From a virus: a stretch of 64,000 bases of DNA. A program made the translations under genes and the position numbers. Below the pieces are notes generated by a model. That model was not told where the DNA came from, did no database searches, and was given only the letters and a program-made list of their open reading frames with translations. Positions 9,782-16,551 of this stretch are shown here, piece after piece (positions within the stretch are counted from its first letter, which is position 1; the number at the start of each line of letters is the position of its first letter). Location: positions 51,648-115,647 of the IMG/VR virus record IMGVR_UViG_3300028377_000005; one strand, given 5' to 3'.

Positions 9782-11062
9782 TTATTCTGACTGCTCTTTT
9801 GCTTTTTGTTTCGCGTCGAGGATTTCACCCTTGATGCCACTGTACAACTCATGTTGCCACATGACGTCGAAGAGGATCACACTTTCACTGTTATAACAAT
9901 TCATTATCAATGCAAAGTCCGCTCTAGTATACTGATCTTTAGCGTACAAAGCAAGGGCCTTTTGTTCCTCTGAAGGGTCCACGGGATGTACCTCTTCGAG
10001 GCATTCGGCCAACATGTCACGCACCTCATCCGCACGGGAACGACATTTCGCAAGCCAATCTAGGTATTGCGTGTGGTACTTTTTGTAGTACTCCAGCGTT
10101 TCCTCAGACGTCGAACCCTCGTCGATCAAGTAGGTCTTGAGGGCTTCCCATTTTTCGAACTCAGGCTTGCCGAAACATATTTTGGTGACAGTTTTAATCG
10201 AACAACTGTACCGGAGCGCGAACTCCCACCGCCACCGTTCTGTTTTAGCCTTGACCCGGTGAACGATACGCCCGTCCTTTTCGAAGCAGATCACACCCCC
10301 TTCCGGCAACCAATCAGCATCCTCTAGGCCCAACACTGTTTCCACCGCCTCCGCCAGTGTTGTATTCTTGGCAAGGTATTCCACCGGCTTACAGTTGTTA
10401 TCCTCGGCCCACTCCATCACGCGGTCGTTGGTCCAATACGTGTGGGTGTCCAAGTCAAACACCGAAAGCACAATCAGATCTTCTCGGTCCCCATATTTAG
10501 TGACGCCCGATTCGCATTCCGGGTGCAGAGCTTCACAAACGATGGTTTTACCGCGAATCACCTCGGGATCGAGCAACGCGGGGTACTGGTCCTCAGCGAT
10601 GCGTCGAATAGCCCCGACATAATCGAAATCCGCGCCGTGGACATTGATATCCACACCTTCGAGCATACTACGGGTCGATACGTAAACCTCACCGTCGTAC
10701 TCGAAGATTTGCGCCATGTAACCGTCGTCTTTGAACGGCAAACTTACGCGCAGCGCTTCATCTTGCGCAAGGGCATGGGTTACCTCGTCGACCTTACCCT
10801 TTTCGCCGTGGTTGTAAATCTTGAGCAAGGGCAACGACACCACCTCATAAGGATCACGTCGGTAAACGATGCCCTTGGCGTAAAGCTGGTGCTCCCATTC
10901 CGGCGTGAACAGGATGCTGGAAGCATTCGCAATCACAAGCCCATTGTCGTGATCTCGCTGGTTAAGCATTTCATCGCCGTCGATAAGCGACAAGACCTCC
11001 TCCGGGTTGTCCCGGAGCTTACCCAAGAGGTAATCGATATGTACGTTCGTTACAGCTTTCAT
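9782..11062 (-). CDS. T4 Rnl1-like RNA ligase
   Basis: Nucleotidyltransferase motifs KDDG (I), STRS, CEAL (III), VFDL (IIIa), EGGVI (IV), RVKAK (V); start at 11062 by ATGA overlap and GGAG RBS. Confidence 0.8.
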   Translation of the reverse strand: MKAVTNVHIDYLLGKLRDNPEEVLSLIDGDEMLNQRDHDNGLVIANASSILFTPEWEHQLYAKGIVYRRDPYEVVSLPLLKIYNHGEKGKVDEVTHALAQDEALRVSLPFKDDGYMAQIFEYDGEVYVSTRSMLEGVDINVHGADFDYVGAIRRIAEDQYPALLDPEVIRGKTIVCEALHPECESGVTKYGDREDLIVLSVFDLDTHTYWTNDRVMEWAEDNNCKPVEYLAKNTTLAEAVETVLGLEDADWLPEGGVICFEKDGRIVHRVKAKTERWRWEFALRYSCSIKTVTKICFGKPEFEKWEALKTYLIDEGSTSEETLEYYKKYHTQYLDWLAKCRSRADEVRDMLAECLEEVHPVDPSEEQKALALYAKDQYTRADFALIMNCYNSESVILFDVMWQHELYSGIKGEILDAKQKAKEQSE

Positions 11063-11322
11063 GCTATTTTCTCCGCCACCCATATCAAGGGGTGGTAAAT
11101 CCACAACACAGTATCATTGATGCGGTCGAATATGCCCTCTCTCAAATCCCACATGTGGTAGATTGCACCCACGAAAATGAGGGGCAACGTGACCGGCAGC
11201 ACTAACAGGCAATAGGCCGCCAGTGCAAGGAGCCCAATCACATAAACAAAGGGCGTAAGCGTAAGCAGCACAACCGCCAGTGCCTTTTTCCAGAGGGGTG
11301 AACGATTAATGGCTATCCGCAT
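11059..11322 (-). CDS. small membrane protein
   Basis: Long hydrophobic stretch; overlaps both neighbours. Confidence 0.6.
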   Translation of the reverse strand: MRIAINRSPLWKKALAVVLLTLTPFVYVIGLLALAAYCLLVLPVTLPLIFVGAIYHMWDLREGIFDRINDTVLWIYHPLIWVAEKIA

Positions 11323-12013
11323 AGTATACCTCTTTCGCTTCCACCTGTACCACTTCCCGCTCAGGCCACCTCAGAGCCGCCAAGGTGTTTCCCTTGACGC
11401 AAGACGTATCCACGCAACAGTAGTGCTCATGAACGGTCGGGTCGTCCATCCAGTAGTGTCCAAAGACAACAAACTCGGGGCCTTCGTAATCCCTCCACCA
11501 TTCGATTCGGGAATTATCCGGGCCGCCACGGAGGCCGTACATACGCAATTTGGCCTTGCCATTGAACGCATGGACAGCAACGGCTTCACCACCGTCCAGT
11601 TCGATCTTGGTAGGCACTTCCTCTAAGAGGAATTCACCTAGCTCGGTTCTGGGGCTATCGAACGGCCACCCTTGCTCAAGCTCGGAAACCGTTTTCTGTA
11701 ACCCGTGTGCGATGGAAACGGGGTTGCCTTTCATCCATCGGAACAGCTTGTTGTCGTGGTTGCCTTGCACCCACAGGGCTTTGCCCGCTATCCAATGGAA
11801 ATAGGCAAACTGCAGGGCGAGGCTGTTATAATACCCACGATCTGTGATATCCCCCACCAGCACAAGCATCCGCCCTTCGGGGTGTTCGTACAGGCCATCT
11901 TCACCCATAACGTAACCGAGCTTTTCAACGAGTGCGATTAGTTCGTAGTAACACCCGTGGACGTCGCCTACGGCGTCGAAGTGGGTAACGTGTTTTGCGT
12001 CGAGTGTCGTCAT
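11306..12013 (-). CDS. calcineurin-like metallophosphoesterase (PrpE/Pnkp-phosphatase-like)
   Basis: GDVHG, GDITDRG, GNHD, VHA, FGHY and VDTSC motifs. Confidence 0.9.
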   Translation of the reverse strand: MTTLDAKHVTHFDAVGDVHGCYYELIALVEKLGYVMGEDGLYEHPEGRMLVLVGDITDRGYYNSLALQFAYFHWIAGKALWVQGNHDNKLFRWMKGNPVSIAHGLQKTVSELEQGWPFDSPRTELGEFLLEEVPTKIELDGGEAVAVHAFNGKAKLRMYGLRGGPDNSRIEWWRDYEGPEFVVFGHYWMDDPTVHEHYCCVDTSCVKGNTLAALRWPEREVVQVEAKEVYYADSH

Positions 12014-12096: not shown

Positions 12097-12480
12097 ATGA
12101 AAGACCTTAAAGATCGTCTCATCAAGCTCGGCAAGGTGCGTAAGGATTTGCGCCCCCACCTTCGGCCTGTTTTGGCGGAGTTAAAAAAGCAAGCTGCGTC
12201 GGTGCGGGTGCCGGTCACTATGTCTCAGACCTTCCGTCAGATGGAGTGGGAATACATGCACGAGCTTGGGCAGGTGATCATGGCCGAGTTCAACAAACAG
12301 GTATCCCGTGAGTCGCAACTCCACAACATCGAGCCTGCTATGGATTCCCGGTTCGGAAATGGTTTCGAGATCACCTACACAACACCTTCGGGTGGTAAGC
12401 ATTCCACGAAAGTGAAATACGGTTCGAAAGACACTCTGAAAGATTTCGTAGGCTATCTCGTTGATGAGTTTGGTGACTGA
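12097..12480 (+). CDS. hypothetical protein with shared basic N-terminal leader
   Basis: MKDLKDRLIKLGKVRKDLRPHLRPVL is paralogous to the N-terminus of the next gene. Confidence 0.75.
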   Translation: MKDLKDRLIKLGKVRKDLRPHLRPVLAELKKQAASVRVPVTMSQTFRQMEWEYMHELGQVIMAEFNKQVSRESQLHNIEPAMDSRFGNGFEITYTTPSGGKHSTKVKYGSKDTLKDFVGYLVDEFGD

Positions 12481-12515
12481 TTTTACCCTTTTAAGCCGCA
12501 ACATAGGAAACCCAA

Positions 12516-12863
12516 ATGAGCAACCTAAAAGACCAACTGATTAAACTAGGCGCTAAGAACAAGAGCCTTCGTCCACATATACGTCCTGTGCTAAAGCAGA
12601 TCACAGGTAAGGAAGCCGCAGGGTACAGTGTCACCGACTTTGACGACGTGCCCGGCCAACTGGCCCACGCCTTTCAGAAAGCCGAGTACGCTAAAGCCAA
12701 CCTTGAGGGCGAACTAAATAAGCTGATCAAAGGTATGGAAGCTGGCGAAGATCCTCGCCGCCTCAGCCGCCGTGTTCAGCAAGCTAAAGGCCAGTCGGGT
12801 GATCTAAAGGCCGCCGCTACTTCCCTTCACAGTATGCTTGAAGACCTACAGCGAAGCCTGTAA
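12516..12863 (+). CDS. hypothetical coiled-coil protein with shared basic N-terminal leader
   Basis: MSNLKDQLIKLGAKNKSLRPHIRPVL. Confidence 0.75.
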   Translation: MSNLKDQLIKLGAKNKSLRPHIRPVLKQITGKEAAGYSVTDFDDVPGQLAHAFQKAEYAKANLEGELNKLIKGMEAGEDPRRLSRRVQQAKGQSGDLKAAATSLHSMLEDLQRSL

Positions 12864-12894: not shown

Positions 12895-13902
12895 ATGGCT
12901 GAAACCAAATACAAAAATAAGCGGGAGACCGATGAGGGTACCACTGTGTATGAGTACTCCGACAAACAGGTCCAACACCGCAACCGTGAGAAAGCCAAGA
13001 AAGTCGAGCAATTAAGCAAGAAGATTGACGACCTCCGCAAACAGGTCAAAAAAGATCTCGCCAGCGACGACAGCGTAACGAAGCTCAAGGCCCTTGCTGT
13101 AGCCTTGATGGACCAGACCTATGAGCGTATCGGAAACGAAAATTCAGCCGAAGAGCGCGGGCATCACGGGGTCACGGTGTGGCGCAAAAAACACGTCAAG
13201 TTCAACGGCAATAAGGCCACGATCAAATACACCGGTAAGTCAGGTGTAGATCACACCAAAACCGTGGACGACCCGAAAGTGGTCAAGGTCCTGAAAGAAT
13301 TTACGAAAGACAAGAGCGGTGACGATTTCGTTTTCGACTGTGGGGATGAAGACGACACTTGCGTTCGCGCAAAAGACGTCAACGATTACCTATCCAAGTT
13401 CGATACCACTGCGAAAGATATCCGGGGATACCACGCCAACCGCCTGATGCAAGAGACACTCAAAGATCTCCGCAAAAAGGGCAAGAAGTTACCCGATGAT
13501 AAGAAAAAACGGGAAGAGTTGCTTAAAGAGGAATTCGATAAAGCACTGGAGATCGTCGCCGGTGAAGTGGGCCACGAGGCCGCTACATTGAAAAGCAACT
13601 ACCTTGTACCTGCCCTTGAGGACACGTACATGGATGGAGGCAAAGTGATCGACAAGCTAGATAAAAAGAAATCCGCCGCTATGAAAACAGCGCGCAACTT
13701 AACCCTAGCCCGTTACGTAGCACAGCGCTATATGCGCAAATCCCGCACATCAACACGTAACCTTAACGAACTCTTGGACGCCAATCAGGTGTACATGGGG
13801 CCGTTGGACGAGGGGATGGTCGAAGCGATGGATGCAGCGGGTGTCGACGAAAGCATTTTGTCGCTGATGCGTGATAGGATCAACGACCGGAACGGCAATT
13901 AA
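12895..13902 (+). CDS. DNA topoisomerase IB (catalytic core)
   Basis: ERIGN, YTGKSG, TAKDIRGYHAN and VGHEAATLKSNY give the R-K-R-H-Y catalytic set of the type IB family. Confidence 0.9.
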   Translation: MAETKYKNKRETDEGTTVYEYSDKQVQHRNREKAKKVEQLSKKIDDLRKQVKKDLASDDSVTKLKALAVALMDQTYERIGNENSAEERGHHGVTVWRKKHVKFNGNKATIKYTGKSGVDHTKTVDDPKVVKVLKEFTKDKSGDDFVFDCGDEDDTCVRAKDVNDYLSKFDTTAKDIRGYHANRLMQETLKDLRKKGKKLPDDKKKREELLKEEFDKALEIVAGEVGHEAATLKSNYLVPALEDTYMDGGKVIDKLDKKKSAAMKTARNLTLARYVAQRYMRKSRTSTRNLNELLDANQVYMGPLDEGMVEAMDAAGVDESILSLMRDRINDRNGN

Positions 13903-13911
13903 GATCCGTTT

Positions 13912-14034
13912 TCATCCCCTACAGAAAGGGGGGTTGCCGCATCCGGGTCCGGGACATGAACAAGGACCAGAACCCGCCTGAATCAACTGGCTGAGTTTGC
14001 CTAATCGCTTGAGCTTCGGCGGCGTGTATTTCAT
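13912..14034 (-). CDS. 40-aa RiPP-precursor-like peptide MKYTPPKLKRLGKLSQLIQAGSGPCSCPGPGCGNPPFCRG
   Basis: Translated by hand (too short for the ORF track); ATG overlaps the upstream TAA (TAATG); YxxPxLxxxG leader; Cys/Gly/Pro-rich core. Confidence 0.65.
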   Translation of the reverse strand: MKYTPPKLKRLGKLSQLIQAGSGPCSCPGPGCGNPPFCRG

Positions 14035-14294
14035 TAGTGGTCCTTTTCGAAAACGAAATGCTGGTCGCTATCGTAAGGATCATCGAACTCCTTATAGACT
14101 TGCAGCCGTGTCGCATTCAGGATGCGCTTGACTTCGGCGATTTCCTCAGCCGTTACAACGATCCGATTGGAGACATGGACCTTCAGTTGGTGTCCCGTCT
14201 CTTTACCCAAATGCTCGATCTTGATACGGTTGTCAAACAGGTTTTCGAGTTCGCCTTGAATCCGCTCGAATGCTTCGTCCCGTGATTCAGTCAT
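14034..14294 (-). CDS. hypothetical protein (86 aa)
   Basis: Overlaps both neighbours; AGGAG upstream. Confidence 0.65.
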   Translation of the reverse strand: MTESRDEAFERIQGELENLFDNRIKIEHLGKETGHQLKVHVSNRIVVTAEEIAEVKRILNATRLQVYKEFDDPYDSDQHFVFEKDH

Positions 14295-14823
14295 TGTCCT
14301 GCTCCTTGTAGTTGTAAACGACGGTTCGATCCATCCCTGCTACTTCTTCCAGCACTAACTTACGCGGCCCTACCTCTTCCCCGTAAACCAAAAGCGTGTT
14401 GCGCCTGTTCGGCACATGATGCTTTAGTTCCCGCCAACTGACGTGGATCCAAAAGTCTATCGGACCACACGCTGACATGTCTGTATTACAGCCCAGATAC
14501 ACTACGGTTGGTGCGTCCTTTACAAGCCCCACCAGACTTCGGAGGTACTGCTGTGGCCACGATAGGAAAACCACGCCTTCGGTGATAGGCTCCAGATCAT
14601 GAAAATAGGCTTGCCGGTACTCCAACCGTTTCGGGTGCTTCCGAACAGGTCCATCTGTATCTATCGGTGCCGGGTTCCGGTCGATAGCAATGACTTTGGA
14701 CGCACCCATGTCCCGTAACTGGTATGCCAAGTCGCAAGAGCCAGCCCCCAAGTCGTAGACAACTTGGTCCTGTACTACATCCCGGAGGACGGCCTCTTGC
14801 GCTTCTGTTAGATGACCTTGCAT
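14287..14823 (-). CDS. class I SAM-dependent methyltransferase-like protein
   Basis: VYDLGAGS motif I, IAID motif II, FLSWP. Confidence 0.7.
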   Translation of the reverse strand: MQGHLTEAQEAVLRDVVQDQVVYDLGAGSCDLAYQLRDMGASKVIAIDRNPAPIDTDGPVRKHPKRLEYRQAYFHDLEPITEGVVFLSWPQQYLRSLVGLVKDAPTVVYLGCNTDMSACGPIDFWIHVSWRELKHHVPNRRNTLLVYGEEVGPRKLVLEEVAGMDRTVVYNYKEQDND

Positions 14824-15682: not shown

Positions 15683-15990
15683 TCGTTGTCTTCGTCTAGT
15701 ATGATTTGCCGGAAATCTTCATCGGTCTTATACATGTGAAGGAACCATTTGAATTTTTCGCGTGCTTCGTAAGTGCCGGGCAATGCTTGCGTGAAAATCA
15801 GGTAATTCCAGTAACTGCCCCACACGAGTAAAACGCTAGCCCAAAAGTACATAGACCAGTCACCCCCTACCCACAAATCGTGAAGGGGTATAGCTATCAT
15901 GGCCGCACCGGTGGCCAAGGCAATAGCCTCAAGCAGATAGGTGGCCCGATATATGCGACGGTTTTCGATGTATGTGCGGCATTTTTTCAT
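15679..15990 (-). CDS. small two-TM membrane protein
   Basis: Two hydrophobic segments; start 15990 by ATGA overlap with the kinase stop. Confidence 0.6.
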   Translation of the reverse strand: MKKCRTYIENRRIYRATYLLEAIALATGAAMIAIPLHDLWVGGDWSMYFWASVLLVWGSYWNYLIFTQALPGTYEAREKFKWFLHMYKTDEDFRQIILDEDNE

Positions 15991-16505
15991 CGCAAGATCG
16001 TGACGTCGCCGCTTTCGGAATCGTATTCGAAAACGCCCGTCCACTTTTCGGTATCGTCGAGGACATTTTGCCGCGCATGGGCGAACCGTGAGGAGTGCTT
16101 TTCGATAACCCATTCCGGCACTTTACGGTCCCGGCTGGCGTTCCGCTCTTTACACAGTTCTTCGTCCGCTTTGATTAGGATGGCGTAGGAAGGCAACCCC
16201 TTAACCACCGGGCCGTAGTATGCCTTGCGGTTCTGACGCTTGAGGTTGGTCGCATCCAGAATGGTCCGTTGTCGGTACTCCGACCGGATCTTTACGATGT
16301 CGTAAATCATCTGGAACACGATACCCGTAACCCTTTGTTCCGTTGGGTCGCCACTCAAGACGCCCCGGTAATGGTCGGATGATACGATTTCGGTCGGACC
16401 ATTAGCCAGTTCGCGAGCCAAGGTACTCTTGCCGCTGCCGGATGAACCAATCATCACAATGACACAGGGGTCAGCCGTGTATTTTTTCAATTCGCGCAAG
16501 TTCAT
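15987..16505 (-). CDS. polynucleotide kinase-like P-loop kinase (AAA_33 type)
   Basis: GSSGSGKST, SSDHYR, LDATNL, RNASRDRKVP; AGGAGG RBS before ATG 16505. Confidence 0.85.
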   Translation of the reverse strand: MNLRELKKYTADPCVIVMIGSSGSGKSTLARELANGPTEIVSSDHYRGVLSGDPTEQRVTGIVFQMIYDIVKIRSEYRQRTILDATNLKRQNRKAYYGPVVKGLPSYAILIKADEELCKERNASRDRKVPEWVIEKHSSRFAHARQNVLDDTEKWTGVFEYDSESGDVTILR

Positions 16506-16522
16506 GTCTGCCTCCTGTACAT

Positions 16523-16551
16523 TCCATACCATAGCTATCCTGTGCCGTCAA
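16523..16551 (-). promoter_or_regulatory. sigma70-like promoter TTGACG-N17-TATGGA
   Basis: Intergenic, correct spacing, upstream of the kinase RBS. Confidence 0.55.

What the first reader, a model, noticed from the sequence alone, without database searches (positions are those of the whole stretch)
13912..14823. Hidden RiPP-precursor-like peptide with lasso-type leader and 4-Cys core at the end of a phage methyltransferase operon
Seen: a 40-codon ORF missing from the ORF track, coupled to the upstream gene by TAATG, encodes MKYTPPKLKRLGKLSQLIQ-AGSGPCSCPGPGCGNPPFCRG. Known: YxxPxLxxxGxxxxxT is the leader bound by RRE (PqqD-like) domains in lasso-peptide and some other RiPP pathways. Here the conserved Thr is Ile and the core has no Asp/Glu, so a canonical lasso ring cannot form; the core is Gly/Pro-rich with C-x-C-x4-C-x5-C. 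Upstream are an 86-aa protein (RRE-sized, not obviously RRE-like) and a SAM methyltransferase; no cyclase, peptidase or radical SAM gene is in the window. Inference: a phage peptide matured by host or remote enzymes, or a leader-mimic decoy that blocks a host RiPP pathway. This is a candidate undescribed system.
Basis: partly seen in the sequence, partly recalled or inferred. Interest (0 to 1): 0.8.

Follow-up and report, generated by a model that had tools for sequence, protein, structure and literature searches.

The report
Orphan lasso-like peptide gene in phage
A 40-codon gene in a huge phage is real and conserved. Its product resembles the precursor of a lasso-type antibiotic peptide, but it lacks the residue that ties the lasso and has no maturation enzymes nearby, so its role is still open.

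Summary
A 40-codon ORF lies at 13912-14034 (-) and overlaps the stop of the upstream 86-aa gene (TAATG). It is a real gene. A sister phage lineage (L001/L003/L007) carries it at 79-82% identity in the same position. Codon changes are 18 synonymous against 8 non-synonymous, and no other frame is open in both phages.

Tyr, Pro, Leu and Ile sit at exactly -17, -14, -12 and -2. The best PDB sequence hit of the sister peptide is MslA, the precursor of the class I lasso peptide MS-271 (E 0.003, nearly full length). In an ungapped register the core length is the same and Gly12-Cys13-Gly14 and Cys19 coincide.

It is still not a lasso peptide. The core has no Asp/Glu, Cys1 and Asp9 are replaced, and the curated leader models score below cut-off. 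No RRE, peptidase, cyclase, radical SAM, YcaO or MNIO gene occurs in 115 + 96 + 35 kb of phage DNA.

The proposed partners fail too. The 86-aa gene is missing from the sister phage and is not RRE-like. The methyltransferase occurs in 11 other phages without the peptide.

The leader motif alone is near chance level, and residues 7-13 also match the N-termini of two neighbouring genes. Function is unproven. This scan had noted the same ORF before, on an overlapping window of the same genome.

The parts
13912..14034 (-). 40-codon peptide gene including its stop. It is the last gene of the minus-strand gene array.
   Evidence: conserved in L001/L003/L007; 18 synonymous against 8 non-synonymous codon changes, and most differences at the third codon position.
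13978..14034 (-). Codons 1-19, the leader-like half. Tyr3, Pro6, Leu8, Gly12, Leu17 and Ile18 correspond to -17, -14, -12, -8, -3 and -2 of lasso leaders.
   Evidence: Read from the sequence. Positions as defined in PMC10368454. 16 of 19 residues are identical in the sister phage; pS 0.92, pN 0.13.
13915..13977 (-). Codons 20-40, the core-like half. It is 21 aa, Gly/Pro-rich, has four Cys and no Asp or Glu.
   Evidence: All four Cys and 15 of 18 residues from G21 to C38 are conserved; pS 0.78, pN 0.19. In an ungapped register with MslA, G12-C13-G14 and C19 coincide.
14041..14045 (-). Shine-Dalgarno-like AAGGA, 6 nt upstream of the ATG, inside the end of the 86-aa gene.
   Evidence: Read from the sequence.
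14034..14294 (-). 86-aa gene translationally coupled to the peptide. It is a lineage-specific insertion and not an RRE.
   Evidence: Absent from G001 and G002. Its only homologue is P0003, 77% identical. AlphaFold mean pLDDT 65, alpha-beta-beta-alpha-beta-beta, no RRE among Foldseek hits.
14287..14823 (-). 178-aa class I SAM-methyltransferase-like gene. It is a syntenic neighbour, not shown to act on the peptide.
   Evidence: Sub-threshold Pfam and NCBIfam methyltransferase hits. Motif I is invariant in 9 homologues. Homologues in 11 other large phage contigs lack the peptide.
12895..13902 (+). Convergent topoisomerase IB gene (context). Its stop lies 9 nt from the peptide's stop.
   Evidence: PF01028, 110 bits. 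Same convergent arrangement in L001, with a 2-nt gap.
12097..12863 (+). Two neighbouring genes (12097-12480 and 12516-12863). Residues 7-13 of each match residues 7-13 of the peptide in the same register from Met1.
   Evidence: Alignment A5. L.[KR]LG[KA] occurs only three times in the six-frame translation of the 115-kb record, always at residues 8-13 of these three genes.

Best explanation
The ORF is a translated phage gene whose product is built like a lasso-type (RRE-dependent) RiPP precursor, and probably descends from one. It has a 19-residue leader with Tyr(-17), Pro(-14), Leu(-12) and Ile(-2), and a 20-21-residue core as long as class I lasso cores.

Shown: the gene is real, both halves are under purifying selection, the resemblance to lasso precursors is specific, and the ring-forming acidic residue is absent.

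Inferred: the leader docks as a beta-strand on a PqqD-like RRE of an enzyme. That enzyme would be encoded either by the host or in the roughly 75% of the phage genome that is not held. The leader is then removed. The core is released as a small Gly/Pro-rich peptide whose four cysteines are cross-linked by two disulfides or another Cys modification. The product would be a non-lasso peptide made through a lasso-type recognition step. This is analogous to the linear polyphosphorylated peptides that use the same leader motif without a cyclase.
For: The gene is real and constrained: 79-82% identity to the sister phage, against 32-89% for neighbouring orthologues. There are 18 synonymous and 8 non-synonymous codon changes, with pS 0.84 and pN 0.16, in leader and core alike.

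The leader spacing is exactly -17/-14/-12/-2 as defined in PMC10368454. That paper shows Ile(-2) is a natural, functional variant.

Several searches point to lasso leaders. phmmer of the sister peptide against PDB sequences gives MslA (8itg_B, MS-271 precursor) as top hit, E 0.0032, residues 3-38 against 5-40. The two-sequence profile gives E 0.0097. MslA is confirmed as the MS-271 precursor in PMC10406935. NCBIfam gives only lasso_leader_L3, and it is the sole match in the sister records. The profile search of 1.84 billion proteins returns one protein, with four lasso-leader-like repeats. The nearest named ESM Atlas clusters are lasso leader families, scores 0.76-0.77, a lead only.

Class I cores are 21 aa with Cys1, Cys7, Cys13 and Cys19 (PMC7168211). 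The phage core is 20-21 aa, and G12-C13-G14 and C19 are in register.

The AlphaFold model shows no compact fold, only a helix at 12-20 with pLDDT 57, as expected for a precursor peptide. Lasso-type leaders are known to serve non-lasso RiPPs (PMC13381572).
Against: No RRE/PqqD, Transglut_core3, Asn_synthase, Radical_SAM, YcaO or MNIO gene is found in G000, G001 or G002. Hpr_kinase_C gives only a P-loop-level match to the PNK-like kinase.

The curated leader model is below cut-off: 12.8-13.7 bits against 19 for the sister peptide, and nothing for the window's own peptide. The window peptide alone hits MslA only at E 0.5.

The bare motif is expected 0.4-2.3 times per 115 kb by chance. C2H2 zinc-finger linkers give comparably small whole-sequence E-values against the Cys/Gly-rich half.

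No bacterial or other viral homologue was found. Only two independent lineages are available.

Leader residues 7-13 also match two neighbouring genes. The host is unknown.
Confidence: 0.35

Rival explanations
1. The peptide is a stand-alone micro-protein and its lasso resemblance is coincidental. A basic amphipathic N-terminal helix contacts a nucleic acid or a protein. The four cysteines in the Gly/Pro-rich tail bind a metal ion as a mini knuckle. The unprocessed 40-mer then acts on a host or phage target.
For: The motif alone is at chance level. No maturation enzyme was found. The window peptide's own best PDB hits are zinc-finger knuckle and linker segments. AlphaFold predicts a helix at 12-20. 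The leader is strongly basic, whereas class I lasso leaders are acidic. Small Cys4 proteins are common in phages (my own knowledge).
Against: The zinc-finger hits are sums of several weak domains, with best single-domain E of 4 or more. The MslA hit is one near-full-length domain at E 0.004. CxC-x4-C-x5-C is not a standard Cys4 zinc motif. AlphaFold gives no compact fold (pTM 0.18). Independent searches of several libraries each return a lasso-type leader as the only or nearest named hit.
Confidence: 0.3
2. The peptide is a dead-end mimic. The leader binds the RRE (B1) of a host lasso-type pathway. Ile at -2 and the missing ring acceptor prevent cleavage or cyclisation, so the peptide blocks production of a host RiPP during infection.
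For: The RRE-contact residues are kept while both residues needed for processing in Thr(-2)-type systems are changed. In BsfA, swapping the -2 residue abolishes leader removal (PMC10368454). RREs of co-resident pathways can conflict over shared leader motifs (PMC13381572). No enzymes accompany the gene.
Against: The core is as strongly conserved as the leader (pN 0.19, all four Cys kept), which a leader-only decoy does not need. No host, no host lasso cluster and no anti-phage lasso peptide is known here.
Confidence: 0.15
3. The N-terminal half is a phage-specific N-terminal signal or propeptide shared with the two neighbouring genes at 12097 and 12516, for example for delivery into the procapsid followed by cleavage. 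The Cys-rich 20-mer is its cargo.
For: Residues M1, K2, [KR]7, L8, [KR]10, L11, G12 and K13 match in the same register. L.[KR]LG[KA] occurs three times in the whole record, only at residues 8-13 of these three adjacent genes. The 115-aa neighbour has a weak head-scaffold PHROG hit, E 0.024.
Against: The similarity covers only about 7 residues and stops at residue 13. Three occurrences is about the number expected by chance (roughly two by my rough residue-frequency estimate, not a tool result); only their placement is unusual. The neighbours lack Tyr3 and Pro6. No prohead protease site or virion data are available.
Confidence: 0.12
4. The region is not a gene. It is an intergenic spacer or terminator between convergent genes that happens to be open.
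For: It sits between convergent genes, is short, and gene callers missed it.
Against: Substitutions are biased to the third codon position (8/7/22) and pS far exceeds pN. Only this frame is open in both phages. RNA folding is no better than for shuffled sequence. An SD-like box and a start overlapping the upstream stop are present.
Confidence: 0.02

Closest known systems
Class I (siamycin-type) lasso peptide precursors: MslA (MS-271) and HumA (humidimycin)
   Same: Total length of about 40 aa. Leader with Tyr(-17), Pro-Pro at -15/-14, Leu(-12), Gly(-8) and Leu(-3). Core of 20-21 aa with four Cys. Gly12-Cys13-Gly14 and Cys19 are in the same register. MslA is the best PDB sequence hit of the sister peptide.
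   Different: Cys1 and the ring-forming Asp9 are replaced by Ala/Met and Pro. Cys7 is replaced by Cys6 and Cys8. Thr(-2) is Ile. The leader is basic rather than acidic. No B1, B2, C or oxidoreductase genes are present. The gene is phage-borne rather than from Streptomyces.
Ile(-2) lasso precursors of Bradymonadales, Acidobacteriaceae and Sphingomonadales (BsfA; PMC10368454)
   Same: YxxPxL at -17 to -12. Ile at -2 followed by Arg or Gln. Basic leader. Ser at core position 3 followed by Gly.
   Different: BsfA has Gly1 and Asp8 for the ring and sits in a cluster with B1, B2, C and an HprK-like kinase. The phage has neither an acceptor residue nor these genes. Its kinase is AAA_33/PNK-like.
Linear polyphosphorylated peptides (LPP; PMC13381572)
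   Same: A lasso-like [Y/W]xxPx[L/V] leader bound by a discrete RRE, with a product that is not cyclised. This is a precedent for a lasso-type leader without a lasso.
   Different: The extended LPP motif after YxxPxV is absent. The LPP genes (SpI-like peptidase, HprK-like kinase, NTP transferase, exporter) were not found; of these only the kinase family was searched.
C2H2 zinc-finger linker/knuckle (YY1, ZNF410, ZIC3)
   Same: Local resemblance of the G-x-x-P-x-x-C-x4-C-G-[KN] stretch.
   Different: No histidines and no finger helix. The matches are sums of weak repeats. This is a composition-level resemblance only.

Membership tests
Lasso peptide precursor (A protein) | Leader motif Tyr(-17)-x-x-Pro(-14)-x-Leu(-12) at fixed distance from the core | tested here: met
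   Y3, P6 and L8 with a 19-residue leader; invariant in both lineages; positions as in PMC10368454. The motif alone is at chance level genome-wide.
Lasso peptide precursor (A protein) | Thr at the penultimate leader position | tested here: not met
   Ile18 in both lineages. Ile(-2) is a documented rare functional variant (PMC10368454).
Lasso peptide precursor (A protein) | Asp or Glu at core position 7-9 as macrolactam acceptor | tested here: not met
   No Asp or Glu anywhere after residue 19 in either lineage.
Lasso peptide precursor (A protein) | Score above the curated cut-off of a lasso leader model (NF033521, PF19397) | tested here: not met
   NF033521 gives 12.8-13.7 bits against a cut-off of 19 for the sister peptide and nothing for the window peptide. 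No PF19397 hit at E <= 1.
Lasso peptide biosynthetic system | RRE/B1 (PqqD), B2 peptidase (Transglut_core3) and C cyclase (Asn_synthase) in the same locus or genome | tested here: not met
   None in G000 (115 kb), G001 (96 kb) or G002 (35 kb). These records are only 7-25% complete and the host is unknown, so remote enzymes are not excluded.
Class I lasso peptides | 21-aa core with Cys1, Cys7, Cys13 and Cys19, and a Cys1-Asp9 ring | tested here: not met
   The length (20-21 aa), Cys13 and Cys19 match. Cys1, Cys7 and Asp9 do not.
RiPP precursor (generic) | Bipartite leader/core peptide with a cognate modifying enzyme | tested here: inconclusive
   Both halves are constrained. No Radical_SAM, YcaO, MNIO, PqqD or HprK-type enzyme was found in the held fragments. 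LanC and other classes were not searched.
RiPP recognition element (for the 86-aa protein) | Winged helix-turn-helix fold (three strands followed by three helices) and a PqqD-family sequence match | tested here: not met
   No PqqD hit. The AlphaFold topology is alpha-beta-beta-alpha-beta-beta, with permuted S6-like/ferredoxin-like top hits and no RRE. The model is of moderate-to-low confidence (pLDDT 65).
Class I SAM methyltransferase (for the 178-aa protein) | Pfam or NCBIfam score above cut-off, and motif I | tested here: inconclusive
   The best Pfam score is 18.6 bits against 27. Motif I (D-x-G-x-G) and the acidic residue after strand 2 are invariant in 9 homologues.

The most novel reading that the evidence does not exclude
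A virus carries an enzyme-less, ring-incompetent copy of a lasso-type precursor and feeds it into an RRE-dependent RiPP pathway of its host. It does so either to make a new Cys-cross-linked peptide or to jam the pathway. This would be the first case of a phage exploiting RiPP leader recognition.
Probability: 0.2. Interest if true: 0.85.

Novelty: new variant of a known kind. Interest (0 to 1): 0.55.

Why it matters
RiPP precursors are normally found next to their enzymes in bacteria. Full-text searches of the paper library held here found no report of a phage-encoded lasso-type precursor.

If the peptide really engages an RRE, it would show that phages can tap or block host peptide-natural-product machinery through the leader code. 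It would also offer a natural example of a lasso-type leader attached to a non-lasso, Cys-rich core, which is useful for leader-guided engineering.

If the resemblance is coincidental, the gene is simply one more conserved phage micro-protein missed by gene callers.

Tried and rejected
- Homologue searches for the peptide found only the sister lineage. These were the word-indexed search of 5.8 billion proteins, genome-contig scans with two pattern sets, viral and metagenome scans, tblastn against phages and plasmids, and the distant 485-kb relative LR745208.1.
- A looser core pattern in IMG/VR gave more than 118 stretches, of which the 80 matches held were screened. All were off-frame chance matches in GC-rich DNA and none had a leader.
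- Reading the region as a structured RNA or terminator was rejected.
- The methyltransferase as the peptide's modifying enzyme was rejected as unsupported, because the family occurs without the peptide.
- The 86-aa protein as an RRE was rejected.
- The PNK-like kinase as an HprK-type lasso kinase was rejected. It scores 83 bits for AAA_33 and only 11-16 bits for Hpr_kinase_C, at the P-loop.
- A double-glycine (bacteriocin-type) leader was considered by eye and rejected, because positions -2, -7 and -12 do not fit.
- Host assignment failed.
The short Logan contigs carrying P0003 and P0005-P0007, and the 478-kb contig carrying P0012, could not be read.
It was left out.

Full report
**What is there.** The window is the 3' 64 kb of a 115,647-bp IMG/VR virus record that CheckV rates 25% complete. 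It is therefore a fragment of a very large phage. Its only database relative is the 485-kb uncultured phage LR745208.1.

The ORF at 13912-14034 (-) exists exactly as described. It has 40 codons and an ATG start. Its first base is the last base of the TAA stop of the 86-aa ORF at 14034-14294. An AAGGA box lies 6 nt upstream. It is the last gene of a long minus-strand array. Its stop lies 9 nt from the stop of a convergent topoisomerase IB gene (PF01028).

**Is it a gene?** Yes. A methyltransferase-based scan of IMG/VR found a sister phage (L001). Peptide-based scans found the same lineage twice more (L003, L007), with identical sequence in this region. The sister phage carries a 39-codon ORF in the same position, 79-82% identical in protein but only 68% identical in DNA.
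- 18 codons differ synonymously and 8 non-synonymously.
- Differences by codon position are 8/7/22.
- pS is 0.84 against pN 0.16, and the values are similar in the leader and core halves.
- Every other frame has stops in the sister phage.
- Neighbouring orthologues are 32-89% identical, so the peptide is among the better conserved genes.
- The region has no unusual RNA structure and only one weak terminator-like match, on the + strand.

**How lasso-like is it?** Counting from a leader/core junction after residue 19, Tyr3, Pro6, Leu8 and Ile18 fall at -17, -14, -12 and -2. These are the positions defined for lasso leaders (PMC10368454). That paper shows that Ile(-2) is a natural and functionally required variant in Bradymonadales, Acidobacteriaceae and Sphingomonadales.

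Independent searches of several libraries all point the same way:
- NCBIfam returns only lasso_leader_L3, for the sister peptide, at 13.7 bits (cut-off 19). In the sister records that model's only match is this ORF.
- A profile of the two peptides, searched against 1.84 billion proteins, returns one hit. It is a 199-aa protein with four repeats of a YEPPxLxxLG...LT unit.
- The nearest named ESM Atlas clusters are lasso leader families, at weak scores of 0.76-0.77.
- phmmer of the sister peptide against all PDB sequences gives MslA as its best hit. MslA is the precursor of the class I lasso peptide MS-271 (8itg_B; PMC10406935). The match is a single near-full-length domain, E 0.0032. The two-sequence profile gives E 0.0097.

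Class I cores are 21 residues long. They have Cys1, Cys7, Cys13 and Cys19 and a Cys1-Asp9 ring (PMC7168211). In an ungapped register the phage core is 20-21 residues, and Gly12-Cys13-Gly14 and Cys19 coincide.

**Why it is not a lasso peptide.**
- There is no Asp or Glu in the core.
- Cys1 and Asp9 are Ala/Met and Pro.
- The curated leader models are below cut-off. The window's own peptide does not hit them at all, and it hits MslA only at E 0.5.
- No PqqD/RRE, Transglut_core3, Asn_synthase, Radical_SAM, YcaO or MNIO gene is detectable in the 115-kb record or in the 96-kb and 35-kb sister records.
- Hpr_kinase_C touches only the P-loop of the operon's AAA_33 (PNK-like) kinase. That kinase belongs with the nearby Rnl1-type ligase and metallophosphoesterase.

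**Caveats on the resemblance.**
- The bare four-position motif is expected about 2.3 times per 115 kb in six frames, and about 0.4 times with [TIV] at the last position.
- The Cys/Gly-rich half also draws weak zinc-finger linker hits, although these are sums of individually insignificant domains.
- Residues 7-13 of the peptide match residues 7-13 of two neighbouring genes (12097-12480 and 12516-12863) in the same register.
- The hexamer L.[KR]LG[KA] occurs only three times in the whole record, each time at residues 8-13 of one of these three genes. This may be chance, or it may mark a phage-specific N-terminal signal. I could not resolve it.

**The proposed partners.**
- The 86-aa gene is absent from the sister phage, where the peptide's ATG overlaps the end of the methyltransferase gene.
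- Its only homologue is 77% identical, on a short Logan contig.
- Its AlphaFold model (pLDDT 65) is alpha-beta-beta-alpha-beta-beta, with no RRE among the Foldseek hits.
- The methyltransferase family has homologues in 11 further large phage contigs, none followed by such a peptide.
- The adjacency therefore looks like conserved synteny rather than a functional module.

**Interpretation.** Both halves of the peptide are constrained. This disfavours a pure leader-only decoy. It favours either a substrate whose core matters or a stand-alone micro-protein. My estimates are:
- 0.35 that it is an orphan lasso-type precursor recognised by an RRE-bearing enzyme encoded elsewhere, giving a non-lasso, Cys-cross-linked peptide. 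Linear polyphosphorylated peptides are a precedent for a lasso-type leader without a cyclase (PMC13381572).
- 0.30 that it is an unrelated metal-binding micro-protein.
- 0.15 that it is a dead-end inhibitor of a host pathway.
- 0.12 that it is a cargo peptide carrying a shared phage N-terminal signal.
- 0.02 that it is not a gene.

AlphaFold gives no compact fold for the peptide (pLDDT 57, helix at 12-20 only). This is compatible with a precursor but is not diagnostic.

**Limits.**
- Only two independent lineages are available.
- The phage genome is 25% complete and the host is unknown.
- A permutation test against published lasso precursors could not be run, because those sequences have no reference.
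- Full-text searches found no report of a phage-encoded lasso-type precursor.

Noticed in passing
window 12097-12480 and 12516-12863 (+); L001 4754-5102 (-): Two adjacent genes share about 35 N-terminal residues and then diverge. In the sister phage only the second has a full homologue. That homologue is split into a 42-aa and a 71-aa ORF, with the two matched segments 8 nt apart (frameshift or sequencing error). The 115-aa protein has a weak head-scaffold PHROG hit (E 0.024).
   Followed up: partly
window 13902-13912; L001 3716-3719: The convergent genes (topoisomerase IB and the peptide) end 9 nt apart, and 2 nt apart in the sister phage. No terminator fits between them, so each transcript must end inside the other gene or read through it.
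   Followed up: no
window 12895-13902 (+); L131 4461-5987: This is a eukaryotic/poxvirus-type topoisomerase IB (PF01028, 110 bits) in a huge phage. In LR745208.1 the homologue is a 508-aa ORF with about 170 extra N-terminal residues.
   Followed up: partly
window 9782-12013 and 15987-16532 (-): An Rnl1-type RNA ligase (PF09511), a metallophosphoesterase (PF00149) and an AAA_33 PNK-like kinase flank the finding. They are consistent with the RNA-repair toolkit noted by earlier readers. The kinase is 86% identical in the sister phage.
   Followed up: partly
protein P0001 (199 aa, from the 1.84-billion-protein library): This protein has four tandem repeats, each starting with a lasso-leader-like YEPPxLxxLG...LT unit followed by about 30 residues. 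It may be a multi-unit precursor.
   Followed up: no
L131 6013-6648 and 8107-8772 (LR745208.1): Downstream of topoisomerase IB in the distant relative, two ORFs again share a conserved N-terminal region (LDN[LI]A.LFQ...SLGI..KVAMDFA.RCDLLSD) and then differ. The sharing of N-termini among neighbours near this gene therefore recurs.
   Followed up: no
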